Below, piece by piece: positions 1-13,663 of a stretch of 13,663 nucleotides of DNA. Each line of letters opens with the position of its first letter. Within the stretch, counting starts at the first letter, position 1. The notes under the pieces are model-generated. The model saw only the letters and a list, made by a program, of their open reading frames with translations, was not told the DNA's origin and made no database searches. The stretch comes from a virus, in IMG/VR virus record IMGVR_UViG_3300045988_016520, positions 1 to 13,663 of that record; one strand, given 5' to 3'. Position numbers and translations under genes: made by a program.

Positions 1-85
1 AAATTTTCCCCCAACCCCCTATTTTTTTGTGCAAAATGTCAATAGACACAAAATATAGTGCCCACGCCCCATAGGGTAGGGGAGT
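1..85. repeat. Left inverted terminal repeat (85 bp)
   Basis: Positions 1-85 (aaattttcccccaaccccct...atagggtaggggagt) are the exact reverse complement of 13579-13663. Identity stops at 86 (a, versus the complement of c13578). The repeat starts 5'-AAA, contains C5-AA-C5 tracts, and carries a 7-bp internal inverted repeat ttttgtg (25-31) / cacaaaa (47-53). Confidence 0.97.
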
Positions 86-660: not shown

Positions 661-919
661 ATTCGTCATCGAGATTCACCCCGACGGCACGTTGACGTGC
701 TGCGAGTATGAGGACCCTAAAGAATCCTTCCGGGCCGCAACTGAACGTGCGTGGCTGGCCGGTTATCGGCAAGCACTCAAGCATTGCGACGAGCAGGTGA
801 ACACGCTTAAGGGTTACAAAGGCACTTGCCAATCATCCGCTCTCATGTACCAGGGGGCCGAATCCGTTCGCTATGTGGTGTTATCGGCCTATCGTAAATA
901 CCTTAACACAAAAAAATAA
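647..919 (+). CDS. Hypothetical early protein (90 aa, four Cys)
   Basis: ATG at 647 with RBS gaaggaga (631-638). Codon usage shifts to the GC-rich style of the rest of the genome. No motif recognised. Confidence 0.65.
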   Translation: MEMRKFVIEIHPDGTLTCCEYEDPKESFRAATERAWLAGYRQALKHCDEQVNTLKGYKGTCQSSALMYQGAESVRYVVLSAYRKYLNTKK

Positions 920-925
920 GTCGAA

Positions 926-964
926 ACGGCCCTCGGGCCGTCCACCGGGACCGCCCGCCCGGTG
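926..964 (+). promoter_or_regulatory. Two back-to-back GC-rich hairpins without a U-tract
   Basis: acggccc-tc-gggccgt (926-941) and caccggg-accgcccg-cccggtg (943-964), 7 nt after the stop codon at 919. The following sequence is ttgataag, not a T-run. Confidence 0.4.
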
Positions 965-1001
965 TTGATAAGACAGGGCACATATTGAAAGGAGTTATAT
1001 T

Positions 1002-1608: not shown

Positions 1609-2188
1609 AGCAAGAGCAACCCTTAAATACAGTCCAGAGCTATACACCCCGTACGCTTTGGAGTCGTGGCCCGATAGTCAGATGCGCAAAGAATACACTC
1701 GATTGCGTGACATTGCGCAGAAACGTATTAAGCGCTTATCAAAAGACCCCATCAGCGGCACCAGCGACATTTATAAAGAATTTGCCGGGGGGTTCCCAAC
1801 TCTAAAGGCAATGCGCGGAGACCGTAAAGCATCGGAGCAGGCCCTTGCAGATGTAGCGCGGTTTGTTCGCTCCAAAGGCTCTACCGTTGGTGGTGCGCGT
1901 GCAGAATTTGAGCAAAAAATGAAAGTGGGCGGTATTGATATAGCCGACGTTCCCGAGGATCAATACACATCCATGTCCGAGTGGTGGGAGATCGTTAAAG
2001 CGTCGGGCGTGTATTACTATCCGTCTGACCAGCCGGTCATGTACTGGCGCGAGAAAGGCGGCTACAACGTCAGTATTGACGATTTTGTAAAGTGGCAGCA
2101 AGGTGAGGTCAACTATGGCACAGAGTGGGACTATAGCGAGGGGAGCAGCTCTGCCGACTTGCGCGGAGGTTTTGGTGGAGGCTTGTAA
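1589..2188 (+). CDS. Candidate terminal protein (199 aa), assigned by position and composition only
   Basis: Directly upstream of and overlapping the protein-primed PolB gene, the usual TP position. RBS aggaaggag (1571-1579). The N-terminal half is basic (KRIKRLSK). The C-terminal half is acidic and rich in Tyr and Ser (YYYPSD, NYGTEWDYSEGSSS). No sequence motif recognised. Confidence 0.4.
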   Translation: MAAGAAKARATLKYSPELYTPYALESWPDSQMRKEYTRLRDIAQKRIKRLSKDPISGTSDIYKEFAGGFPTLKAMRGDRKASEQALADVARFVRSKGSTVGGARAEFEQKMKVGGIDIADVPEDQYTSMSEWWEIVKASGVYYYPSDQPVMYWREKGGYNVSIDDFVKWQQGEVNYGTEWDYSEGSSSADLRGGFGGGL

Positions 2189-4205
2189 TTACAATCCGGT
2201 TCCCTGGCTCATGGAGCACCTGGACAGAAAGCACACTAAAGGCAAGAAGCGCAAAACAAACAAAAAACGATTGTATGTGGATATGCCTTGCGCATTTGAT
2301 ATTGAGACTAGCCGAGTATGTATTGACGCCGACGACAACCCCCACACCATTATGTATATATGGCAATGTCAACTTGGTTTGGATATTACCATTATTGGCA
2401 GGACGTGGGATGAGTGGTTAAATTTTACAGGTGCGATCAGCGACTACTTGCAAGCTAACAGCGGCCCGCAAGGTGACTGGTTTCTGTGTATGTACGTTCA
2501 CAATTTGGCCCACGAATTCCAATATTTGTCGGGTGTTCTGGATTTTGGTCCCGGTGACGTATTCGCCAGCAAGCCCCGGCGCGTTCTGAAATGTGACAAC
2601 CGCGCTATTGAATATAGGTGCAGTATGAGACACAGTAACTTGTCCCTTGATGCTTGGGGTAAGCAGCTGGGTGCCCCACATGCCAAATTGACCGGTACAC
2701 TCGATTATTCAAAAGTGCGGTATCCCTGGACTCCCCTGACATCTACAGAATTAGCGTATTGTGTCAATGATGTCCGGTGTATTGTAGAGTGCTTGTTAAT
2801 TGAGATGAAGCGAGACGGCGACGACCTGTATACATTACCATTAACGCGCACCGGGTACGTCAGACGAATGGCCCGTGAAGCAATGTACAAATGGGGCATT
2901 AACCGGGTCAAGCGTCTACTGCCATCGTGGGAATTGTATCAAATGCTGCGTGAGGCATTCCGAGGTGGCGACACGCACGCCAACCGCTATTATGTGGGTC
3001 TGCACCTAGAAAACGTCGGATCCGTGGATATGTCGAGCGCTTACCCCGCAGTGCAATGCGAATGCTATTTCCCAATGACTCCATTTAGGCAGGAGCCAGC
3101 CACCGTCGAGCGGCTGATGCAATGTATGAGACACGGCAAGGCGTGCCTCATGCGCTTGCAAGTAAAAGGCTTGCGCCAGCGGTTCAAGTGGTGGGGATTT
3201 CCCTATATCCCACTTGCAAAAGTTCGGCACTGTGAAGGATACATAAACGACAATGGCCGCTTGCTGTCTGCCGATCATTTTGAAATCACCATTACAGATA
3301 TAGATTTTAGAATCATTGCCAAAGAATATGATTGGTACGCCCTTAACGTTCTGGACCTTTACACTTCTGATTATGGCAAATTGCCTAAACCGTTGACGGA
3401 CTGTGTTAAAGAGAGTTACACCGGCAAGACATCCCTTAAAGGTGTAGCCGGTCAAGATTTGTATTATGTTAAGGCCAAGGGCGATCTTAACAGCTATTAC
3501 GGTATGACTGCGCAGGACCCCTTGCAGCTGGATACACTTTTTGACGAGGACGACTCCGACAATCTTTGGAGCGAATGCACTGACGACCCAGAGGGCAGTT
3601 ATAACGAGCACCGCCCCCATTTGTTTCTACCGTACCAATGGGGCGTGTGGACAACGGCCCACACGCGAAAGCGCTTGAAAATAGCGCAATGGGCAGCTGG
3701 CAAGAATGGCGTGTACTGTGATACCGATTCCGTCAAATACATGGGCAATATTGATTTGTCGGGCTTTAACAAAGCCGTAAAGCAACTTGCAAAAGACAAC
3801 GGCGCTTGTGCCACCGACCCAAAAGGCCACACCCATTATATGGGTGTGTACGAGCAGGAGCGCAGCTATGCGGAGTTTATGACGTGGGGCGCTAAAAAAT
3901 ACGCGACTACTTATAAAAAAGGCGGGCCTATCACTACTACCATAGCAGGAGTTAGCAAGCGTAAAGGCGGTTTGGAGCTGGCCCTGTGGGGCGGTTTCGA
4001 AGTATTCAAGCCCGGGTTTACGTTTTGTCTTGCCGCCGGAAATCAGGTTATTTATAATGATCGTCCAAACGTGCCGGATTTTGTGGTAGATGGACATACT
4101 GTCCACATCACCCGCAATTTGTGTATTTGTGATAATACCTATACACTCGGCATTACGGACGAGTATGCAAAGATACTCGGGTATAAGATCATGGAGGTTA
4201 CATAA
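2115..4205 (+). CDS. Family B DNA polymerase, protein-primed (phi29 gp2-like) type
   Basis: Exo I FDIET (D codon at 2298). Exo II HNLAHEF. Exo III YCVNDV. Motif A DMSSAYP. Motif B KGDLNSYYG. Motif C YCDTDS (3714-3731). KxY as GAKKY. The start is uncertain: ATG 2115 has gagg 6 nt upstream, and alternatives are GTG 2103, GTG 2175 and ATG 2211. Confidence 0.93.
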   Translation: MAQSGTIARGAALPTCAEVLVEACNYNPVPWLMEHLDRKHTKGKKRKTNKKRLYVDMPCAFDIETSRVCIDADDNPHTIMYIWQCQLGLDITIIGRTWDEWLNFTGAISDYLQANSGPQGDWFLCMYVHNLAHEFQYLSGVLDFGPGDVFASKPRRVLKCDNRAIEYRCSMRHSNLSLDAWGKQLGAPHAKLTGTLDYSKVRYPWTPLTSTELAYCVNDVRCIVECLLIEMKRDGDDLYTLPLTRTGYVRRMAREAMYKWGINRVKRLLPSWELYQMLREAFRGGDTHANRYYVGLHLENVGSVDMSSAYPAVQCECYFPMTPFRQEPATVERLMQCMRHGKACLMRLQVKGLRQRFKWWGFPYIPLAKVRHCEGYINDNGRLLSADHFEITITDIDFRIIAKEYDWYALNVLDLYTSDYGKLPKPLTDCVKESYTGKTSLKGVAGQDLYYVKAKGDLNSYYGMTAQDPLQLDTLFDEDDSDNLWSECTDDPEGSYNEHRPHLFLPYQWGVWTTAHTRKRLKIAQWAAGKNGVYCDTDSVKYMGNIDLSGFNKAVKQLAKDNGACATDPKGHTHYMGVYEQERSYAEFMTWGAKKYATTYKKGGPITTTIAGVSKRKGGLELALWGGFEVFKPGFTFCLAAGNQVIYNDRPNVPDFVVDGHTVHITRNLCICDNTYTLGITDEYAKILGYKIMEVT

Positions 4206-4621
4206 TGAACAACGCGTTGTTTACAAGCAAAACGGGACTGTGGGAAACTCCACAAGAATTTTTCGATAAGCTGAACCGGGAGTTCGATTTCACATTAGAC
4301 GCTTGTGCGACACCAGAGAATGCCAAGTGTATAAACTTTTATTCTCCAGAGCAAGACGGCCTGAGCATGCCGTGGAATGGGCGCGTTTGGTGCAATCCGC
4401 CGTATGGCAGACAGGTTGGCCAGTGGGTCAAAAAAGCGTATATGAGTGCACAGACCGGAGCTCTTGTGGTGTTGCTGCTGCCCGCTAGAACCGACACCGC
4501 ATGGTTCCATGATTATATTTACCGGAGAGCGGAGATCCGTTTTGTTAGAGGAAGACTAAAGTTTGGAGGAAGCAGAAACAGTGCTCCATTCCCTTCCATG
4601 GTATGTTTTTTTAGGGGGTAA
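4205..4621 (+). CDS. DNA N6-adenine methyltransferase, phage Dam-like family (138 aa)
   Basis: Catalytic NPPY (WCNPPYG). Family-typical WETPQEFFDKLNREFDFTLDACA, LLPARTDTAWFH and RGRLKFGG..NSAPFPS. TAATG overlap with polB. RBS ggagg at 4193-4197. Confidence 0.88.
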   Translation: MNNALFTSKTGLWETPQEFFDKLNREFDFTLDACATPENAKCINFYSPEQDGLSMPWNGRVWCNPPYGRQVGQWVKKAYMSAQTGALVVLLLPARTDTAWFHDYIYRRAEIRFVRGRLKFGGSRNSAPFPSMVCFFRG

Positions 4622-4625
4622 CAAG

Positions 4626-5687
4626 ATGATTAAACTTTATACCGATGAAGGTTGGCCGAACTTTTCCGAAAAGGACGGCATCTTGTCAACTGGGGTACCC
4701 ATTATTTTTATATGGGGCGGACGTGGCACCGGAAAGACCTATGGAGCGCTAAAGCACGTCCACCAGACCGAAGAGGAATTTCTGTATTTGCGTCGCACGC
4801 CACAGCAGGCGGAACTTATTTGTGCGTCACCCAGTATGTGGCCGTGGTCTCCGTTGAACGACGATTTACAAACGCATTACGCCCCGTTCAAATTGCCCAA
4901 GATAGCGGGACTATATGAAGTGGGCAACGCAGGAGCCTACACGGATACAGGAGCGCCCATTAAACCAGCCAAGATGTCGGGCGTAGTGGGTAGTGTGGTC
5001 ACTCTTGCCCGCACCCGTGGTTTTTCAAGTCCCCACACCAATATAATCATCTTGGATGAATACCAGAAAGAAGAGTCCGACTATTACCGGCGCGGTGAGG
5101 GCGTGGGCCTTGCTAACATTTATGAAACGGTCAACCGAAACCGCGAATTACAAGGGCAAAAGCCCCTGACGCTGCTGTGTATGTCGAATGCTGTTGGCAT
5201 GGCGAACCCCTATTATATGCAATGGGAGATAACCGACACAGTAGAAAAGATGATCGGCAAGAAAGAGCGCGTAAAGCTGCTTGCTGATAAAGGCATTCTT
5301 TTGATTGATCTTGTGGATAGCCCTATTGCAAAGGAAAAAGCAAATACGGCCCTCTATAGGTCCATGACCGGCACAGATTTTTACAGATCAGCTATCGAGA
5401 ATCAGTACAGCGCCGAAGAAAAGAGTTTGGTTGTGTCCCGGCCCTTGCGTGAATACTACCCGCTTGTACAAATTGGGCGGTGTTGCATCTACGAACATAA
5501 GAGCAGACCACTATATTATGTATGCCGCCACAGGTCTGGCGAGATGCCCACCTATGGCACCGGCGACTATGAGCGAAAACGTTTTAGGGCCGCGTATGGG
5601 TACATCTGGCCCGCATACTTGCAGCGGCAACTTGAATTTGAGCGGTACTCGGATGAAATTTTCTTCCGTGAATATTGCGGTACTTGA
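4626..5687 (+). CDS. DNA encapsidation (packaging) ATPase, phi29 gp16-like (353 aa)
   Basis: Walker A GGRGTGKT, followed by YLRR as in gp16 (GARGIGKS...YVRR from memory). Walker B IIILDE. ATG 4626 follows aggggg (4613-4618) and the methyltransferase stop at 4621. The TTG 4563 extension in the track overlaps the methyltransferase. Confidence 0.85.
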   Translation: MIKLYTDEGWPNFSEKDGILSTGVPIIFIWGGRGTGKTYGALKHVHQTEEEFLYLRRTPQQAELICASPSMWPWSPLNDDLQTHYAPFKLPKIAGLYEVGNAGAYTDTGAPIKPAKMSGVVGSVVTLARTRGFSSPHTNIIILDEYQKEESDYYRRGEGVGLANIYETVNRNRELQGQKPLTLLCMSNAVGMANPYYMQWEITDTVEKMIGKKERVKLLADKGILLIDLVDSPIAKEKANTALYRSMTGTDFYRSAIENQYSAEEKSLVVSRPLREYYPLVQIGRCCIYEHKSRPLYYVCRHRSGEMPTYGTGDYERKRFRAAYGYIWPAYLQRQLEFERYSDEIFFREYCGT

Positions 5688-5712
5688 CTTTTTTACGCAG
5701 TTGTTATATATT
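5684..5712 (+). promoter_or_regulatory. Sigma-A-type promoter TTGACT-17-TATATT (candidate late promoter)
   Basis: ttgact (5684-5689, overlapping the ATPase stop), a 17-nt spacer, then tatatt (5707-5712). The predicted start near 5719-5720 coincides with the base of the downstream long helix. Confidence 0.55.
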
Positions 5713-5714
5713 AA

Positions 5715-5792
5715 AGTTAATCCCCGGTGCCCACAGGCAGCCCCCAGAAGGGGCGGGCAAGCGTCAGCCAGCGCAAGAACCGGGGATTTACT
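5715..5792 (+). ncRNA. Structured RNA element (three-helix junction) between the ATPase and late genes. Could be a leader, a terminator or a small RNA
   Basis: Perfect 10-bp closing helix aatccccggt (5719-5728) / accggggatt (5779-5788), extendable to 5715-5792 with one mismatch. Inner hairpin gcccc (5740-5744) / ggggc (5750-5754), stacked on gccc (5729-5732) / gggc (5755-5758) with a 7-nt bulge. A small third hairpin lies at 5761-5774. Confidence 0.5.
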
Positions 5793-5817
5793 TGTATCTG
5801 CATTGGAGGTGTACAAA

Positions 5818-5976
5818 ATGGATGCTAATAGTATGATTCAGGCTATTTCTAACGTGGGTTTTCCCATTGCCGCGTTCTTGCTGATGTGGTATCAGTGCAA
5901 CACCGTTGTTAAGGAGAACACGGCGGCTATCACCGAGATGCGGCTTGCTCTGGACGACATCAAGAAGGAGAGTTGA
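5818..5976 (+). CDS. YvrJ-like small membrane protein (52 aa), possible holin
   Basis: ATG 5818 with ggagg (5805-5809). Single hydrophobic segment ISNVGFPIAAFLLMWY. The N.GFPI motif resembles the YvrJ family as recalled. It is the internal part of track ORF 5431-5976. Confidence 0.55.
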   Translation: MDANSMIQAISNVGFPIAAFLLMWYQCNTVVKENTAAITEMRLALDDIKKES

Positions 5977-6497: not shown

Positions 6498-7772
6498 ATG
6501 CCCCTTGGCATGGATTTTGCGGACATTGCCGCCATTTTGACCGAGATCAACAAACTGGCCACGGGCCAGACACCAACGTCGCCCATCGTGGACACGTCTA
6601 GTTTCGTTTCCGTGGCGCAGGCCACTTTGCTGACCGGCACCGACAACTACACCAAAGCGATCAGTCAGGTGCTGGGCCGTACCATTTTTGCCGTCCGCCC
6701 CTACGATGCCCCGCTCAAGCGCTTGCAGGTCACGGGCGACGACTGGTCGAACCATGTACGGAAGATCAATTTTTGCGACACTGACCCCGTCACCGACGAG
6801 GCGTGGGCGCTGCAAGACGGCCAGAGCGTGGACATGTACGAAGTCCACAAGCCCGAAGTGCTTCAGACAAACTACTACGGCCAGACCAATTACAGCCGCG
6901 TGTACACGCAGGCAGACACCCAGATGGAAGCAGCATTCAAGGGGCCCGAGGAACTGGCGCAGTTCTGGTCGTCCTTCGTGCTTCACCTGTCGAACCAGAT
7001 CGAGGCTGACCGGCGCAACCTTGCCAACAACCTGATGGCCAACCATCTGACCGGCATGACTGTGACCAGCCCCGACAGCGTCGTATATCTGCTTGATGAG
7101 TATAACGCCCAGCAGGGCACCCAGCTGACGGTGCAGGACGTCTACAAAGAAGCGAACTTCCCGGGGTTCGCAAAGTACGCTTATGGCCGTATCAACGATA
7201 TTTCCCGCCTGATGAAAGAGCGCTCCATCAATTGGCACCAAAATTGGAAGATCGGCAGCACGACGTACAACATTATGCGGCACACACCGTATGACAGACA
7301 GCACCTCTACCTGTACAGCGGCACGCAGAGTCAGATCGACGCCCGCGTGATTCCCGAGGTGTTCCATGACAACATGCTGAAGTATCGTGACGCCGAGCAG
7401 GTCACGTTCTGGCAGAACATCGACGAGCGGGAGACCATCTCCGCGACGCCTGTTGTGACCACTGCCGCCGGTGTGGCATCCAAGAATGCCGCGGTGCAGC
7501 TGTCGAATGTGTTTGGCTGCCTGCTGGATTGGGACGCCATCGGCTACACTCCGAAGCTGTCCCGTGTGGTCCCGACCCCCATGAACGCCCGTGGCCTGTA
7601 TACAAATTTCTGGTATCACTACGGTTGGTCGTGGTACGATGACTTCACCGAGAACGCCGTTCTGTTCCTGATGACCGCCGAAGACGTCACCGCGCCCAGT
7701 ACGGGCAAAGCATCCAGAGCCTCCACCCTGAAAACCACCACGCACAAGGACGAAGACCCCTCGAAGTCCTGA
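6498..7772 (+). CDS. Major capsid protein, phi29 gp8-like (424 aa)
   Basis: C-terminal signature NARGLYTNFWYHYGW resembles NPRGLYWNYYYH of phi29-type head proteins (from memory). The size, the position after the scaffold gene and the strong terminator downstream all fit. This is the most GC-rich gene in the window. Confidence 0.85.
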   Translation: MPLGMDFADIAAILTEINKLATGQTPTSPIVDTSSFVSVAQATLLTGTDNYTKAISQVLGRTIFAVRPYDAPLKRLQVTGDDWSNHVRKINFCDTDPVTDEAWALQDGQSVDMYEVHKPEVLQTNYYGQTNYSRVYTQADTQMEAAFKGPEELAQFWSSFVLHLSNQIEADRRNLANNLMANHLTGMTVTSPDSVVYLLDEYNAQQGTQLTVQDVYKEANFPGFAKYAYGRINDISRLMKERSINWHQNWKIGSTTYNIMRHTPYDRQHLYLYSGTQSQIDARVIPEVFHDNMLKYRDAEQVTFWQNIDERETISATPVVTTAAGVASKNAAVQLSNVFGCLLDWDAIGYTPKLSRVVPTPMNARGLYTNFWYHYGWSWYDDFTENAVLFLMTAEDVTAPSTGKASRASTLKTTTHKDEDPSKS

Positions 7773-7777
7773 CCGGC

Positions 7778-7809
7778 ACCGGCGGGCGTTTGCCCGCCGG
7801 TTATTTTAT
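7778..7809 (+). terminator. Strong intrinsic terminator after the capsid gene
   Basis: 10-bp stem accggcgggc (7778-7787) / gcccgccggt (7792-7801) with loop gttt, followed by tattttat. It merges into the shared box ttattttataggagg (7801-7815). Confidence 0.8.
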
Positions 7810-7821
7810 AGGAGGTGCAAA

Positions 7822-9225
7822 ATGCAAGCTACATTTTACCAGTTTGCAAAGCGCACAAACAGCACAAAACGGCCCAGCGGTGGGCAGGAGTTCGGAATTG
7901 ACCTTAAAGCCCCTTGCAATATCATTGACCCAGAGATCAAAATTGCAACGCAGAGCGACCCCACCGTGTTCAATTATTGTTACCTTCCTACGTTCAGCCG
8001 GTACTACTGGGTGAAGAACTGGACATATTCGGACGGGCTCTGGAATGCCTCGCTGACTGTTGACACGCTGGCAAGCTATCGCGACCAGATCGGAAATAGT
8101 ACGGAGTATGTCACAAGATCGTCGGCGCAGTATGATGGTACAATTTCAGATGGACTTTACCCGGCATCGGCTAAAGTGCAAAGTGTAACAACCGCTTTTC
8201 AAGGGGGCTTCGCGGAAACAATTAGTGGGGGATTCTTTGTTATTGGGTTTATAGCTAAAGCCGCAAACTCCATCGGGGCTATTACATATGTAGTAATGAC
8301 CCCCACAAATGCTAAAAAACTATCTGCAAAATTGCTGACTGATGTGTCATACCTTAGTATTGATAACTCCGAAATCAGCGACAATTTGACAAAGGTCCTT
8401 TTCAATCCGTATCAGTATATCGTAAGTTGCAACTATTTTCCATTTGACATCGCTAAACTCACCGCGCATTTGCCGCTTGTGGCTAAGATCGATGTGGGGT
8501 GGTGGTCTGTGGATGTACCTGGCTGGATTTTGGGCGAAGATAACAATAACTTCAAAAAATCGGTAAGTGTGACTGTACCGAAGCACCCCCAGGCGGCAAA
8601 TCGTGGCGAGTATTGCAATGTTGCCCCTTACACGGATTACACTATTTATTTGCAGCCCTTTGGAGTGATACCCCTTGATGCCTCTAAAATGTGGGGGGCT
8701 GCCACATTATCTATACAATATGTGGCGGACCTTTTCACCGGTGACAGCGTACTGCGCATATTTACCAATGGTAACCAGCTGGTATACGAGACAACCGCAA
8801 AACTAGGTGTATCGGTGCAGCTGTCAAATATTAACTTTGGTATCCCCTCCGGCAGTGGGGGTCTTTTGCAAACTGGTATTGCTGCAGCGTTTGGAGGTCT
8901 ACAAGCGGCATTATCTGGCGGAACTTTATCGGACGTCGGAAATGGTATTTTAAATGCCGCCCAAGCAACAAATGCGGATGTCGCAAGCAAGGGCGCCACA
9001 GGGTCGACAATAGCCTTTGATACAATACCCTATATGGTAGCCCGGTTTAAAATTCTTGTGGACGACAACAATGAGGACCACGGCAGGCCCCTTTGCCAGC
9101 GCGTCCAGCTGTTCAGTATTCCGGGGTTCATTATGGTAGATGACCCCGACATCGCATTAACCGCGACTGCCGCCGAGATTGACAGCGTTAAAAGTTATAT
9201 GAAAAATGGATTCTTTTTAGAGTAG
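7822..9225 (+). CDS. Tail knob / distal tube protein, phi29 gp9-like (467 aa)
   Basis: N-terminal pattern NYCYLPTFSRYYWV...LTVDTLASY parallels gp9 YIMFQN..WFYAFV...EIDVLQTW. A Gly/Ala-rich hydrophobic loop (GGLLQTGIAAAFGGLQAALSGG) is followed by GSTIAFD and a C-terminal EIDSVKSYMKNGFF, as in gp9 (comparison from memory). Confidence 0.7.
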   Translation: MQATFYQFAKRTNSTKRPSGGQEFGIDLKAPCNIIDPEIKIATQSDPTVFNYCYLPTFSRYYWVKNWTYSDGLWNASLTVDTLASYRDQIGNSTEYVTRSSAQYDGTISDGLYPASAKVQSVTTAFQGGFAETISGGFFVIGFIAKAANSIGAITYVVMTPTNAKKLSAKLLTDVSYLSIDNSEISDNLTKVLFNPYQYIVSCNYFPFDIAKLTAHLPLVAKIDVGWWSVDVPGWILGEDNNNFKKSVSVTVPKHPQAANRGEYCNVAPYTDYTIYLQPFGVIPLDASKMWGAATLSIQYVADLFTGDSVLRIFTNGNQLVYETTAKLGVSVQLSNINFGIPSGSGGLLQTGIAAAFGGLQAALSGGTLSDVGNGILNAAQATNADVASKGATGSTIAFDTIPYMVARFKILVDDNNEDHGRPLCQRVQLFSIPGFIMVDDPDIALTATAAEIDSVKSYMKNGFFLE

Positions 9226-9237
9226 GAGGCATAAACG

Positions 9238-9789
9238 ATGGCAGTATATAAACAGTGCATTACTGATGTATCACCGATCAGAGTGACCGCCGGTTATCCT
9301 GCATACCAGGATGGCAGCCCTCACCGGGGCATTGACACAGTCCACGGAGATCATAAAGCCTACGCGCCCGAGGCGGGCGTTGTGGTCGTGGCTCAGCACT
9401 GGAATGGCAGCACCTCGGGCGACCAGTCATGGGGTAACATGATTAAAGTGCGGATGGCCGACGGCACGACATGGCGGGCCGCGCACTTCGCTACGCAAAT
9501 TTGGAACGTGGGCGACACGATCTCTAAGGGGCAATTCATCGGCACACAGGGCGATACCGGCTACGTTACGGGCATACACACGCACTGGGAATATGCCGAT
9601 GCCGCCGGAAACCTGAGGGACCCGTCCAGCATTATCAGAATCCCGAATCAGGTGGGGACATGGGACGTAGAGTGGGACTCGGGCGGGGGCCCTGGCCCGG
9701 GTCCCGGGCCGGGTCCCGGGCCGTGGCCTACTGGCAAATTGCCGGTATGGTTGCTGTTTAAGATGGCGAAGGGAGGTCGTCTGTTGTGA
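9238..9789 (+). CDS. M23 family (LytM-like) peptidoglycan endopeptidase with a (GP)n linker and short C-terminal amphipathic tail (183 aa)
   Basis: Zinc-ligand motifs HxxxD (HRGID) and HxH (HTHWE). GGGPGPGPGPGPGPWP is encoded at 9682-9729. The C-terminal tail is TGKLPVWLLFKMAKGGRLL. RBS aggagg lies upstream of ATG 9238. Confidence 0.85.
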   Translation: MAVYKQCITDVSPIRVTAGYPAYQDGSPHRGIDTVHGDHKAYAPEAGVVVVAQHWNGSTSGDQSWGNMIKVRMADGTTWRAAHFATQIWNVGDTISKGQFIGTQGDTGYVTGIHTHWEYADAAGNLRDPSSIIRIPNQVGTWDVEWDSGGGPGPGPGPGPGPWPTGKLPVWLLFKMAKGGRLL

Positions 9790-10727
9790 GTGCTCCCTAC
9801 AGCTACGAACAGATTAACGCCCATGTGTCGCCGGTGACTCCCTCTGTGATGCACACAAAAGGAAATAGCCTGTCCTATTATTTCCGCAAGTATCTATTTC
9901 TTGAGGCCGTGTCTATGGTCCGATGGACATTGCCCGAAACATGGCCCAGTAACCGCTTGCAGTATCTTGTCTTTGGCTCGGGTGGTGTTACGGTGTTTAA
10001 CACTGACCGCTATGGCTTAGTCTATGACAGAATGGGACTAACCGGCCTTAACATCTTCTACAATCCCACACACTCCATCATTGCAAACCCTTTTATCAAA
10101 GGGTCCCCATATTTGCAGATCGGAAAGCAATGCGAGATCATCAATTTACAGCCCGATTACCGCGGAATGGTTGATATTGTGGCATATTATGGGGACATGA
10201 TGGCACTTGCCGCCCAGACCATCCAGAGCAATTTAATCAATAGCCGACTTGCCTACGTGTTTGCGGCAGGCAACAAAGCGGGTGCAGAATCTTTCAAAAA
10301 GATGTTTGACGAAATTATGCAGGGCGACCCCGCTGTATTCGTTGATTCGTCTTTGCTCAAAGCACCCAAGAATGGGGCATCCGGGCAGGCCCCATGGATG
10401 TATTTTGCAACTGACCTTAAAGGGAACTTCATCACCAACGAACTGCTTACAGCCCTTAAAACCATTAAAGCACTGTTCGATACCGAGGTAGGCATCCCCA
10501 ACACGAATACCAGCAAGAAAGAACGGATGCTAACCGATGAAGTCAATTCAAACAACGTCGAAACAGCTGCCAAAGCGTCGCTCTGGTTGGATAGCTTGCA
10601 GCGTGGTTGTGAGCGGGTACACAAACTGTTTGGAATTGACAAGTCTACTTTGTGGGTTGACTGGCGTTTTCCGCCCGATACTAATACGCAGGAGGTGAAC
10701 AACGATGCACGCGACCTTGAGCTTTAA
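9786..10727 (+). CDS. Portal / connector (upper collar) protein, phi29 gp10-like (313 aa)
   Basis: KKERMLTDEVNSNN matches the gp10 signature KKERMVTDEVSSN (from memory). The size is close to gp10 (about 309 aa). GTG start in a GTGA overlap with the M23 gene, 9 nt after ggagg (9772-9776). Confidence 0.85.
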   Translation: MSAPYSYEQINAHVSPVTPSVMHTKGNSLSYYFRKYLFLEAVSMVRWTLPETWPSNRLQYLVFGSGGVTVFNTDRYGLVYDRMGLTGLNIFYNPTHSIIANPFIKGSPYLQIGKQCEIINLQPDYRGMVDIVAYYGDMMALAAQTIQSNLINSRLAYVFAAGNKAGAESFKKMFDEIMQGDPAVFVDSSLLKAPKNGASGQAPWMYFATDLKGNFITNELLTALKTIKALFDTEVGIPNTNTSKKERMLTDEVNSNNVETAAKASLWLDSLQRGCERVHKLFGIDKSTLWVDWRFPPDTNTQEVNNDARDLEL

Positions 10728-13578: not shown

Positions 13579-13663
13579 ACTCCCCTACCCTATGGGGCGT
13601 GGGCACTATATTTTGTGTCTATTGACATTTTGCACAAAAAAATAGGGGGTTGGGGGAAAATTT
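13579..13663. repeat. Right inverted terminal repeat (85 bp)
   Basis: Exact reverse complement of 1-85, ending ...gggggaaaattt-3'. Confidence 0.97.

What the first reader, a model, noticed from the sequence alone, without database searches (positions are those of the whole stretch)
5684..5817. Near-consensus promoter firing directly into a 75-nt three-helix RNA next to the packaging ATPase gene
TTGACT-17-TATATT (5684-5712) places the transcription start at about 5719. That is exactly the first base of a perfect 10-bp helix (5719-5728 / 5779-5788), which encloses two further hairpins and so forms a three-way-junction layout. The bulge acaggca (5733-5739) and the loop tcagccag (5764-5771) share a ggc/gcc complementarity that could support a tertiary or intermolecular contact. 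There are three options: (a) a 5' stabiliser or regulatory leader for the late operon; (b) an early-operon terminator for transcripts arriving from the ATPase gene, though the trailing U-tract (tttactt) is weak; (c) a compact packaging-RNA analogue for the gp16-like motor. pRNAs are so far known only in Bacillus phi29 relatives, so option (c) would be a novel finding.
Basis: partly seen in the sequence, partly recalled or inferred. Interest (0 to 1): 0.65.

Follow-up and report, generated by a model that had tools for sequence, protein, structure and literature searches.

The report
Miniature pRNA-like RNA in gut phages
A strong promoter in this 13.7-kb phi29-like gut phage fires straight into a 70-nt RNA whose fold is conserved across a large phage family and looks like a half-size copy of the phi29 packaging RNA, a molecule so far known only from Bacillus phages.

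Summary
Window 5719-5788 (+) is a real structured RNA. It has terminal helix A, a first arm (helix C, a 7-nt 5'-side bulge, helix E and a CNGAA loop) and a second arm (hairpin D).

Relatives whose ATPase is only 29-57% identical keep the fold. 93% of pair cells are paired, against 56% in shuffles, and 24 of 25 pairs show double-sided changes. The bulge and D loop are complementary and covary, with about 20 different pairing cores (GGC/GCC here).

A consensus sigma-A promoter sits so that transcription starts at the first base of helix A. The most common gap from the -10 box is 6 nt.

The element marks the start of the late operon (holin, capsid). In rearranged genomes it moves with that operon, not with the ATPase gene. 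It has no family-wide terminator and no Rfam match.

Its layout matches phi29 pRNA domain I, but at 67-80 nt instead of about 117. The host genomes encode gp16-type ATPase and gp10 connector homologues.

Best reading (about 0.5): a miniature packaging RNA made from the 5' end of the late transcript. Main rival (about 0.35): a cis-acting 5' leader with an intramolecular pseudoknot. I found no prior description.

The parts
4614..5687 (+). gp16-type DNA encapsidation ATPase gene, the last gene of the left (replication) block. Its stop codon overlaps the -35 box.
   Evidence: Pfam PF05894 Podovirus_Gp16, E = 6e-14. PHROG terminase. The family profile matches phi29 gp16 chain 7JQQ_A residues 108-285 of 332, E = 2.6e-16. 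Most relatives align from residue 18 of the TTG ORF.
5684..5689 (+). -35 hexamer TTGACT
   Evidence: Kept as TTGACT or TTGACA in close and distant relatives while the spacer varies.
5707..5712 (+). -10 hexamer TATATT, with a 17-nt spacer. The predicted transcription start is about 5719.
   Evidence: Across the family the most common distance from the end of the -10 box to the first paired base of helix A is 6 nt, and most values are 4-8. The transcription start itself is inferred, not measured.
5719..5728 (+). Helix A, 5' strand (AAUCCCCGGU). It pairs with 5779-5788.
   Evidence: All 9 modelled pairs have double-sided changes.
5729..5732 (+). Helix C, 5' strand (GCCC). It pairs with 5755-5758.
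   Evidence: All 4 pairs covary and 97.6% of cells are paired.
5733..5739 (+). 5'-side bulge ACAGGCA, the counterpart of the pRNA CE loop. G5736, G5737 and C5738 pair with C5769, C5768 and G5767.
   Evidence: Bulge and D loop from the same sequence give a mean Watson-Crick run of 4.1 bp, against 2.4 bp when bulges are paired with loops from other sequences. About 20 different pairing cores occur. Pseudoknot columns were counted.
5740..5744 (+). Helix E, 5' strand (GCCCC). It pairs with 5750-5754.
   Evidence: All four modelled pairs covary and 100% of cells are paired; the fifth pair (5744-5750) exists only in the window's clade and was not in the model. A GCUCC/GGAGC variant occurs in close relatives.
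5745..5749 (+). E loop CAGAA (family consensus C-N-G-A-A)
   Evidence: Only 6 loop variants occur among 63 distinct sequences. Amedibacillus phage AD70P3 has CCGAA.
5750..5758 (+). 3' strands of helix E (5750-5754) and helix C (5755-5758). They are contiguous, with no unpaired base between them.
5759..5760 (+). Junction from helix C to helix D (AA), variable in relatives
5761..5774 (+). Hairpin D: stem GCG/CGC (5761-5763/5772-5774) and loop UCAGCCAG (5764-5771). The loop is the counterpart of the pRNA D loop, and G5767, C5768 and C5769 pair with the bulge.
   Evidence: All 4 modelled pairs covary and 98% of cells are paired. Loop complementarity to the bulge is shown.
5775..5778 (+). Junction from helix D to helix A (AAGA), moderately conserved as NNGA/AAGAA
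5779..5788 (+). Helix A, 3' strand (ACCGGGGAUU)
5789..5817 (+). Variable A/U-rich spacer with the Shine-Dalgarno sequence GGAGG (5805-5809). The U tract is weak (UACUUGUAU). It contains UCUG (5797-5800), which is complementary to the E loop but not statistically significant.
   Evidence: Sequence and length vary among close relatives. The test of E-loop/spacer pairing gave p = 0.5 for the window.
5818..5976 (+). First late gene: a 52-aa single-pass membrane protein that resembles a holin
   Evidence: PHROG 4898 holin, E = 1.9e-6. A homologue follows the element in the rearranged L243-type genomes. Other clades have a different holin, an endolysin or a scaffold-like gene first.

Best explanation
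Window 5719-5788 encodes a miniature counterpart of the phi29 prohead/packaging RNA (pRNA).

Shown:
- A conserved consensus-type sigma-A promoter sits so that transcription should start at the first base of helix A.
- The RNA folds into a three-way junction. Its first arm carries a 5'-strand-only bulge next to a short capping hairpin (helix E, CNGAA loop). Its second arm is a short hairpin (D) whose loop is Watson-Crick complementary to the 3' part of that bulge.
- All four helices and the bulge/loop pairing covary across a large family of about 13-kb phi29-like phages. These phages encode gp16-type ATPase, gp10-type connector and phi29-type capsid proteins.

Inferred:
- As in phi29, the bulge of one molecule pairs with the D loop of the next. 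This would close a ring around the connector of the prohead.
- The E and C arm would contact the prohead. Helix A, formed by the 5' and 3' ends, would project outward as the docking site for the ATPase, whose vestigial C-terminal domain cannot hold the connector by itself.
- The RNA would be made as the 5' end of every late transcript. It would then be freed by partial termination or by endonuclease cleavage in the A/U-rich spacer. In one relative RNase P processing of an adjoining tRNA would do this. RNA supply would thereby be coupled to capsid-protein supply.
For: 1. The structure is real. z = -3.6. RNAalifold gives 20 of 20 covarying pairs. 93% of cells are paired against 56.5% in shuffles, and covariation is 0.876 against 0.183. 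Model R1 hits exactly once per locus in 83 of 90 sources, with E from 1e-8 to 1e-21.

2. The bulge/D-loop pairing covaries. Examples are GGTCA/TGACC, GACCA/TGGTC, AGTCA/TGACT, TAGCA/TGCTA, GTCCA/TGGAC, GCACA/TGTGC, GTATCA/TGATAC and AAAAGGAA/TTCCTTTT, with GGC/GCC in the window. This is the defining feature of pRNAs. PMC12670572 reports right-hand/left-hand loop covariation and states that two G/C pairs are enough.

3. The topology matches pRNA domain I as described in PMC5066667. [quoted passage not shown] By my own knowledge of the phi29 sequence, the pairing bases also lie at the 3' end of the bulge next to helix E.

4. The motor is homologous. Hits are PF05894 gp16, PF05352 connector and PF25622 phi29 capsid protein. 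The ATPase family profile aligns to gp16 of the phi29 motor structure 7JQQ through residue 285, which reaches into the C-terminal domain. In phi29 that domain makes no contact with the connector, and pRNA is the bridge (PMC7672431).

5. The genome has an 85-nt inverted terminal repeat and is densely coding. Only two sizeable non-coding gaps exist, 920-1001 and 5688-5817. If the phage has a pRNA, this element is the only candidate with the right shape.

6. The distributions are complementary. RF00044 hits phi29 but not the window or relatives L253 and L255-L258. R1 finds nothing in phi29 or Enterococcus phage Athos.

7. In L258 a tRNA-Gln gene starts 4-5 nt after helix A, ahead of the late genes. 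tRNA processing would release the element as a free RNA of about 75 nt. This argues that it need not stay attached to the mRNA.

8. G-U pairs at several positions fix the strand as +.
Against: - Size. The element is 67-80 nt, against about 117 nt for pRNA domain I. Helix A is a plain 8-15 bp duplex without the 3-nt bulge that binds gp16 in phi29. There is no domain II (for the phi29 features).
- No family-wide 3'-end signal. U-richness after helix A varies from 0 to 8 of 10 nt, and one clade has the RBS about 12 nt downstream.
- Position. The element is always the first thing transcribed in the late operon, and it moves with that operon in rearranged genomes. A cis-acting leader would behave the same way.
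- The junction strands differ from phi29: 0, 2 and 4 nt here, against 1, 3 and 0 in phi29. Helices C and D are about equally long, so an intramolecular bulge/loop pseudoknot cannot be excluded.
- The pairing region does not evolve faster than the helices, so there is no sign of selection for private kissing codes.
- The E loop is nearly invariant across very divergent phages. That fits a conserved host partner or a tertiary contact at least as well as contact with fast-evolving capsid proteins.
- There is no similarity to RF00044.
- No experimental data exist.
Confidence: 0.5

Rival explanations
1. The element is a cis-acting 5' leader of the late operon, and the bulge/D-loop pairing is an intramolecular pseudoknot that compacts the three-way junction. 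The compact, 5'-flush fold would act on the transcript that carries it. It could block 5'-end-dependent decay by RppH and RNase J or Y. It could act on RNA polymerase as a processive antiterminator, like HK022 put or the Bacillus EAR element. It could also bind a phage or host protein that times late (holin and capsid) expression.
For: - The element always sits at the exact 5' end of the late transcription unit, 12-60 nt ahead of the first RBS, with no universal terminator between them.
- It stays with the late operon when that operon lies on the opposite arm from the ATPase gene.
- The late promoter is a near-perfect sigma-A consensus. Some post-initiation control of holin and capsid expression would therefore be useful.
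- A strong terminator-like hairpin follows the capsid gene at 7778-7801, upstream of essential tail and connector genes.
- Helices C and D are about equally long, so the D loop and the bulge can lie at the same height.
- The pairing region evolves at the same rate as ordinary helices.
- The near-invariant CNGAA loop suggests a conserved partner.
- In some clades a segment 8-12 nt after helix A is complementary to the E loop.
Against: - A simple hairpin is enough for 5' stabilisation. Deep conservation of a three-way junction plus pseudoknot across phages with ATPases only 25-40% identical needs a more specific role.
- The junction bases are variable, unlike a ligand-binding riboswitch core.
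- There is no conserved expression platform, and the spacer to the RBS varies freely in sequence and length.
- The first downstream gene differs between clades: two unrelated holins, an endolysin, or a scaffold-like gene.
- In L258 a tRNA gene separates the element from the mRNA.
- E-loop/spacer pairing is not family-wide. Only 9 of 54 spacer clusters reach p < 0.05, and the window gives p = 0.5.
- This reading does not explain why the layout copies pRNA in phages that carry the pRNA-dependent type of motor.
Confidence: 0.35
2. The element is a trans-acting small RNA with a role other than packaging. It could be a decoy or sponge for a host RNA-binding protein or defence factor, or a self-dimerising regulatory RNA.
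For: - It has a strong constitutive-type promoter and a highly stable compact fold with an invariant purine-rich pentaloop.
- It is potentially released by tRNA processing in L258.
- No target-complementary single-stranded region is conserved, which fits protein binding.
Against: No specific partner or known family can be named, and neither Rfam nor the literature searches gave a match. This reading does not explain the point-by-point match to the pRNA layout.
Confidence: 0.1
3. The element is an intrinsic terminator for transcripts that arrive from the ATPase gene and the early block. Helix A would be the terminator stem and the three-way junction would be its loop.
For: - A GC-rich 10-bp closing helix is followed by UUUACUUGUAU in the window.
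- Several clades have good U tracts directly after helix A, for example L241 TTTTATTT, L219 TTTTATTTAT and L243 GCTTTTTGTATTT.
Against: - U-richness is not conserved, and the L195-L202 clade has 1 T in 10.
- The window's tract is weak, and the terminator scan did not report the site.
- A promoter placed to start exactly at helix A, the covarying inner arms and the pseudoknot are all unnecessary for a terminator.
- The late genes downstream must be transcribed through it.
Confidence: 0.03

Closest known systems
phi29 prohead/packaging RNA, pRNA (Rfam RF00044; Bacillus phages phi29, PZA, M2/Nf, B103, SF5, GA-1, DLc1 group)
   Same: - Encoded by a protein-primed podophage with a gp16 ATPase, a gp10 connector and a phi29-type capsid protein.
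- Transcription starts at the first base of a terminal helix made from the 5' and 3' ends.
- Three-way junction.
- The first arm is a helix, then a bulge on the 5' strand only, then a short helix and a loop.
- The second arm is a hairpin whose loop is complementary to the 3' part of the bulge, and the two covary.
- Primary sequence is poorly conserved but the secondary structure is kept.
- My nearest-neighbour estimate is that the 3-bp GGC/GCC contact has about the same stacking energy as phi29's AACC/GGUU.
   Different: - 67-80 nt, against 117-120 nt for domain I and 174 nt in full.
- Helix C is 4-5 bp against about 10, and helix A is 8-15 bp against about 26.
- No CCA bulge in helix A, no U-rich junction and no domain II.
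- Junction strands are 0, 2 and 4 nt instead of 1, 3 and 0.
- No terminator of its own, because it is co-transcribed as the 5' end of the late operon.
- No RF00044 hit.
- Intermolecular pairing and prohead binding are untested.
HK022 put RNAs and the Bacillus EAR element (cis-acting processive antiterminator RNAs)
   Same: A structured RNA of about 70 nt that is transcribed immediately after a phage promoter, at the head of a long operon containing a terminator-like site.
   Different: By my own knowledge, put consists of two simple stem-loops without a junction or pseudoknot and occurs in lambdoid coliphages. EAR is larger and lies inside an operon. No sequence or model similarity was found. 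No effect on termination has been shown here.
5'-terminal stabiliser stem-loops of Firmicute and phage mRNAs (aprE leader, ermC, SP82 stabiliser)
   Same: A stable helix flush with the 5' end of the transcript, in a phage of Gram-positive gut bacteria.
   Different: Those elements are single hairpins with no conserved loops or tertiary pairing. Here a three-way junction, a pseudoknot and an invariant pentaloop are conserved at great evolutionary depth.
Tuning-fork three-way-junction riboswitches (purine class)
   Same: A three-way junction of about 70 nt in which two side-by-side arms are tied together by Watson-Crick contacts, located in a 5' leader.
   Different: Riboswitches have a highly conserved junction core and an expression platform. 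Here the junction bases vary, there is no alternative-pairing platform and there is no Rfam hit.
Lambda and P22 boxB hairpins of nut sites
   Same: Helix E with its loop (GCCC-CNGAA-GGGC) resembles a GC-rich 4-5 bp stem capped by a purine-rich pentaloop near the 5' end of a phage operon. This resemblance comes from memory and is only a lead.
   Different: boxB is a free-standing hairpin bound by N protein. No N-like protein or boxA was identified, and here the hairpin is embedded in a larger fold.

Membership tests
phi29-type pRNA | Encoded in a phage that has a gp16-type encapsidation ATPase and a gp10-type connector | tested here: met
   PF05894, PF05352 and PF25622 hits. The ATPase profile matches phi29 gp16 chain 7JQQ_A at E = 2.6e-16. 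The genome is linear with an 85-nt inverted terminal repeat and a family-B DNA polymerase.
phi29-type pRNA | Three-way junction with a terminal helix A made from the 5' and 3' ends, an arm of C helix, bulge and E helix, and a D hairpin | tested here: met
   Covariation-supported consensus structure. The layout was compared with the description in PMC5066667.
phi29-type pRNA | CE (right-hand) bulge and D (left-hand) loop are complementary and covary | tested here: met
   Mean run of 4.1 bp for bulge and loop from the same sequence, against 2.4 bp for mismatched partners, with about 20 pairing cores. The criterion is as used in PMC12670572.
phi29-type pRNA | The loop/loop pairing is intermolecular and builds a ring on the prohead | not testable with these tools
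   Sequence cannot separate intramolecular from intermolecular pairing. In phi29 itself this was settled only by mixing complementary mutants.
phi29-type pRNA | Domain I of about 117 nt with a long helix A that carries the 3-base bulge bound by gp16 | tested here: not met
   The element is 67-80 nt. Helix A is an uninterrupted 8-15 bp duplex with no conserved bulge. The phi29 features are given.
phi29-type pRNA | Domain II (helices B and F) and its own terminator, giving a discrete 174-nt transcript | tested here: not met
   Helix A is followed by 12-60 nt of variable spacer and the first late gene. There is no second domain and no conserved terminator.
phi29-type pRNA | Match to the Rfam model RF00044 | tested here: not met
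   No hit at E <= 10 in the window and none at the gathering threshold in relatives. phi29 itself scores 145 bits.
phi29-type pRNA | Bound to proheads, required for DNA packaging, absent from virions | not testable with these tools
   This needs experiments. Cultured relatives exist: Amedibacillus phages AD70P2 and AD70P3.
Intrinsic terminator | GC-rich stem directly followed by a run of U, conserved in relatives | tested here: not met
   T counts in the 10 nt after helix A range from 0 to 8. The window site was not reported by the terminator scan.
Riboswitch | Highly conserved junction or ligand-pocket bases plus an expression platform with alternative pairing | tested here: not met
   The junction bases are among the most variable positions. 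The spacer to the RBS is variable. There is no Rfam hit.
put-like processive antiterminator RNA | Promoter-proximal RNA that makes RNA polymerase read through downstream terminators | tested here: inconclusive
   The position fits, and a terminator-like hairpin lies inside the late operon at 7778-7801. There is no structural similarity to put, and function cannot be tested here.
tRNA, tmRNA or any described RNA family | Match to ARAGORN or to any Rfam 15 model | tested here: not met

The most novel reading that the evidence does not exclude
pRNA may not be peculiar to Bacillus phages. A half-size version of about 70 nt could be an essential motor part in a very abundant family of about 13-kb phi29-like phages of the human gut, and in cultured Guelinviridae such as Amedibacillus phages AD70P2 and AD70P3. 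It would be produced by cutting or terminating the 5' end of the late mRNA. This would define the minimal RNA able to bridge connector and ATPase. It would also suggest that an RNA adaptor is ancestral to the phi29-type packaging motor.
Probability: 0.5. Interest if true: 0.92.

Novelty: new variant of a known kind. Interest (0 to 1): 0.85.

Why it matters
For almost 40 years pRNA has been treated as unique to phi29 and its Bacillus relatives. A 2024 review says so (PMC11476376). A 2025 structure-based search added only more Bacillus-phage pRNAs (PMC12670572).

Whether other phi29-like motors also need an RNA has stayed open. Those motors include the Staphylococcus, Streptococcus, Clostridium and gut phage groups.

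This element is a concrete candidate backed by covariation. It occurs in hundreds of metagenomic genomes and in at least one cultured phage pair, so the question can be tested directly.

If it is a pRNA, it gives three things:
- the minimal natural architecture for the RNA ring
- a new small building block for RNA nanotechnology
- evidence on whether the RNA adaptor is ancestral

If it is not a pRNA, it is still a new, widespread structured RNA that heads the late operon of a major gut phage group, and its mechanism would be new.

Tried and rejected
- **tRNA or tmRNA and all Rfam families at E <= 10:** no match at the element.
- **Coding explanation.** Three mechanical ORFs cross the region (5431..5976, 5511..5816 minus strand, and 5675..5836). 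This is rejected because relatives show paired compensatory changes and indels.
- **Opposite-strand RNA.** Rejected because of G-U pairs and because all hits are on the + strand.
- **Extension of helix A upstream of 5719 (AAGU/ACUU).** Not conserved. Relatives have AAAGAT without a compensating change.
- **Generic structure-only descriptor on whole genomes.** Not specific. Shuffled genomes score 23-29 and the window element scores 26.7. It is useful only because its top hit falls in the expected gap in L253, L256 and L258.
- **Model R1 on Amedibacillus phage AD70P3.** No significant hit. Membership there rests on the MFE fold, manual parsing and the descriptor's top hit.
- **A second pseudoknot between the E loop and the spacer.** Suggestive in some clades but not family-wide, and not significant in the window.
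- **Diversifying selection on the bulge/loop pairing.** Not seen.
- **tRNA adjacency.** Found in only one genome, L258.
- **Host assignment through bacterial genomes.** Gave only two metagenome bins, labelled Collinsella and Prevotella, which is probably a binning artefact.
- **Single-protein search with P0007 in viral contigs.** Gave one locus only.
- **Literature searches for a prior description.** None found.
Full report
**What the window is.** The 13,663-bp window is a complete linear phage genome with a perfect 85-nt inverted terminal repeat. All genes are on the + strand.
- It encodes a family-B DNA polymerase (2103-4205), a Dam methylase, a gp16-type encapsidation ATPase (4614-5687) and a small holin-like protein (5818-5976).
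- It also encodes a phi29-type major capsid protein (6498-7772), an M23 peptidase and a gp10-type connector (9786-10727).
- Its nearest database record is an unannotated human faecal contig, MT836263, at 90% identity.
- The ATPase belongs to a very large metagenomic family. One 90%-identity cluster alone holds 5,613 member sequences, and 597 proteins reached E <= 1e-5.
- The nearest cultured relatives are Amedibacillus phages AD70P2 and AD70P3 (Guelinviridae), with about 26% ATPase identity.

**Check of the observation.**
- TTGACT-17-TATATT occupies 5684-5712, and the ATPase stop codon lies inside the -35 box.
- 5719-5728 pairs perfectly with 5779-5788.
- The 70-mer folds at -36.3 kcal/mol, z = -3.6, and none of 200 shuffles folds as well.
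- ARAGORN and Rfam find nothing there.

**Close relatives.** I looked at 80 IMG/VR contigs with 95-99% identical ATPases.
- The -35 and -10 hexamers and their spacing are kept while the spacer sequence drifts.
- Helix A switches between CCCCGG/CCGGGG, CCCAGG/CCTGGG, CCTCGG/CCGAGG and CTCAGG/CCTGAG. Helix E switches between GCCCC/GGGGC and GCTCC/GGAGC.
- The bulge, the E loop and hairpin D are almost invariant, and the junction bases vary.
- This supports both the promoter and the fold.

**Distant relatives.** I used alignments of ATPase homologues at 32-60% identity to fetch more than 160 further loci.
- The same element sits after a consensus promoter in nearly all of them.
- A hand-written descriptor recovered it in 233 of 242 regions; seven of those were later set aside as spurious matches.
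- Covariance model R1, built from 54 diverse copies, hits exactly once per locus in 83 of 90 sources, with E from 1e-8 to 1e-21. The window scores 71.8 bits at 5720-5787.
- On that alignment 93.0% of pair cells are standard pairs, against 56.5% in shuffles. 24 of 25 pairs have double-sided changes. The covariation score is 0.876 against 0.183, and slid-register controls give 0.11-0.16.
- RNAalifold predicts the same three-way junction on its own, and 20 of 20 pairs are compensated.
- Frequent G-U pairs fix the strand as +.

**The bulge/loop contact.**
- In every clade the 3' part of the bulge is complementary to the D loop, and the sequences differ between clades. Examples are GGTCA/TGACC, GACCA/TGGTC, AGTCA/TGACT, TAGCA/TGCTA, GTCCA/TGGAC, GCACA/TGTGC, GTGC/GCAC, GAGC/GCTC and GTATCA/TGATAC.
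- More remote genomes have AAUCA/UGAUU, GUCG/CGAC and an 8-bp AAAAGGAA/UUCCUUUU.
- The mean Watson-Crick run is 4.1 bp for bulge and loop from the same sequence and 2.4 bp for mismatched partners. About 20 different cores occur.
- The pairing is therefore selected. Sequence alone cannot tell whether it forms within one molecule or between molecules.

**Promoter and 3' side.**
- A TTGACA-16/18-TATAAT promoter precedes the element in almost all clades.
- The distance from the -10 box to the first paired base of the fully extended helix A is most often 6 nt, and mostly 4-8 nt. A start at the first base of helix A is thus a family trait. It is inferred, not measured.
- Downstream there is no common terminator. 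The number of T in the next 10 nt runs from 0 to 8, and the L195-L202 clade has an A-rich spacer with the RBS about 12 nt away.
- The 'early-operon terminator' reading is therefore not the conserved function.

**What the element travels with.**
- In a subgroup whose ATPase gene ends at a terminator facing convergent genes, the loci around the ATPase gene lack the element.
- Whole contigs show it near the other genome end, on the opposite strand. There it again lies behind a consensus promoter and in front of a homologue of the window's holin-like gene, followed by the capsid gene.
- In L195 it lies 840 nt past the ATPase gene.
- The first downstream gene differs among clades: two unrelated holins, an endolysin, or a scaffold-like protein.
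- The element therefore belongs to the head of the late transcription unit, not to the ATPase gene or to any particular downstream gene.
- In one genome (L258) a tRNA-Gln gene is wedged 4-5 nt after helix A, before the late genes. tRNA processing would detach the element from the mRNA.

**Cultured phage.** Amedibacillus phage AD70P3 has a 123-nt gap between its packaging ATPase gene and the next gene.
- The gap holds TTGACA-17-TATATT, followed by helix A (UGAGGG/CCCUCA) and helix C (GUUGC/GCAAC).
- Next come the bulge AUAUCCAA, helix E with loop CCGAA, and hairpin D with loop GGGA, which is complementary to the UCC of the bulge.
- R1 does not reach it. However, it is the top hit of a structure-only descriptor over the whole genome.

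**Comparison with pRNA.**
[quoted passage not shown] It also lists a 3-base bulge in helix A that binds gp16, and a second domain (PMC5066667).
- The present element has the same topology point by point. This includes, by my knowledge of the phi29 sequence, the placement of the pairing bases at the 3' end of a bulge on the 5' strand only, next to helix E.
- The differences are:
  - it is about half the size
  - its helix A is plain
  - it has no domain II and no terminator of its own
  - its junction strands are arranged differently
  - it does not match RF00044, while phi29 scores 145 bits
- The motor proteins are homologous. The ATPase family profile aligns with gp16 of the phi29 motor structure through residue 285 of 332.
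- In phi29 the ATPase C-terminal domain makes no contact with the connector, so pRNA is the bridge (PMC7672431).
- The window has only two sizeable non-coding gaps.
- R1 finds nothing in phi29 or in Enterococcus phage Athos. Athos instead has a separate structured RNA gene of about 125 nt, with its own terminator, at the early/late boundary.

**Weighing the readings.** For a packaging RNA:
- the specific match in topology
- the homologous pRNA-dependent type of motor
- the lack of any other candidate RNA in the genome
- the complementary distribution with full-size pRNA
- the tRNA insertion in L258

For a cis-acting leader with an intramolecular pseudoknot:
- the invariable position at the 5' end of the late operon
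- the absence of a shared 3'-end signal
- the similar lengths of helices C and D
- an E loop that is nearly invariant across very divergent phages
- a pairing region that evolves no faster than the helices

A possible E-loop/spacer contact exists in some clades only.

I put the miniature-pRNA reading at about 0.5, the cis-leader reading at about 0.35, another trans-acting role at about 0.1 and a terminator at about 0.03.

**Novelty.**
- There is no Rfam family.
- Four full-text searches returned no paper that describes it.
- The 2024 review states that pRNA is unique to phi29 and related Bacillus phages.
- The 2025 structure-based search found only further Bacillus-phage pRNAs.
- Whatever its function, this is an undescribed, widespread RNA family with strong covariation support. 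If it is a pRNA, it is a new variant of a known kind.

Noticed in passing
window 919-982 (+): A near-threshold match to the type II hammerhead ribozyme (RF02276): 35.8 bits against a gathering score of 37, E = 3e-4, over the full model. It lies in the gap after ORF 647-919. The core reads UUGAUAA instead of CUGAUGA, so C3 and G8 are both changed in a way that would keep that pair as U-A. It is conserved in MT836263 with one compensatory C-G to U-A change in a stem. It was not found at the gathering threshold in five more distant relatives.
   Followed up: partly
window 1-85 and 13579-13663: A perfect 85-nt inverted terminal repeat. The window is therefore a complete linear genome, presumably replicated by protein priming.
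   Followed up: partly
L258 (MT836587) 8489-8564, minus strand: A tRNA-Gln gene starts 4-5 nt after helix A of the element (8568-8633, minus strand) and lies ahead of the RBS of a scaffold-like late gene. The order is promoter, element, tRNA, late operon. It is the only such case among about 260 loci.
   Followed up: yes
L260 (Enterococcus phage Athos, LR990834) about 4585-4775 (+): An unannotated 266-nt gap between the polymerase operon and the late operon. It holds a TTTACA-17-TAAAAT promoter, an RNA of about 125 nt with a long interrupted helix from its 5' and 3' ends and a multibranch core (z = -3.4), and a clean intrinsic terminator. There is no Rfam hit. It may be a full-size pRNA of Enterococcus Salasmaviridae.
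   Followed up: partly
window 5797-5800, and 8-12 nt after helix A in several clades (for example L173, L164, L231, L208): A short segment complementary to the E loop: UCCGG for CGGAA loops, UCUG for CAGAA loops and UCAGG for a CUGAA loop. The match follows the loop variant. It is present in only about a third of spacers and is not significant in most clades.
   Followed up: yes
window 7778-7801 (+): A strong terminator-like hairpin (10-bp stem, 9 GC pairs, then TATTTTAT) directly after the major capsid gene and upstream of the essential tail and connector genes. It probably sets the ratio of capsid protein to the other proteins, and it bears on the antitermination rival.
   Followed up: no
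window 4205-4621 (+): A Dam-type N6-adenine methyltransferase gene (PF05869, E = 5e-30) sits between the polymerase and packaging ATPase genes of a tiny protein-primed phage.
   Followed up: no
L084, L082 and L195-L202 compared with the window: The first gene after the element is one of two unrelated small membrane proteins. The window has a YvrJ/PHROG-4898 type. Some clades have an 'MKMAWFVAVLVFILLDIVSGL...' type. Elsewhere it is an endolysin or a scaffold-like gene. The cargo at the head of the late operon is therefore swapped while the RNA stays.
   Followed up: partly
L262 and L263 (genome contigs): The only bacterial 'genomes' that carry this phage family are two metagenome bins labelled Collinsella and Prevotella. 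Each holds a whole contig of about 13.3 kb. This is most likely mis-binning and gives no host evidence.
   Followed up: no
L001 (MT836263) 3917-3993, minus strand: The closest GenBank relative carries a tRNA-Pro gene that the window lacks.
   Followed up: no
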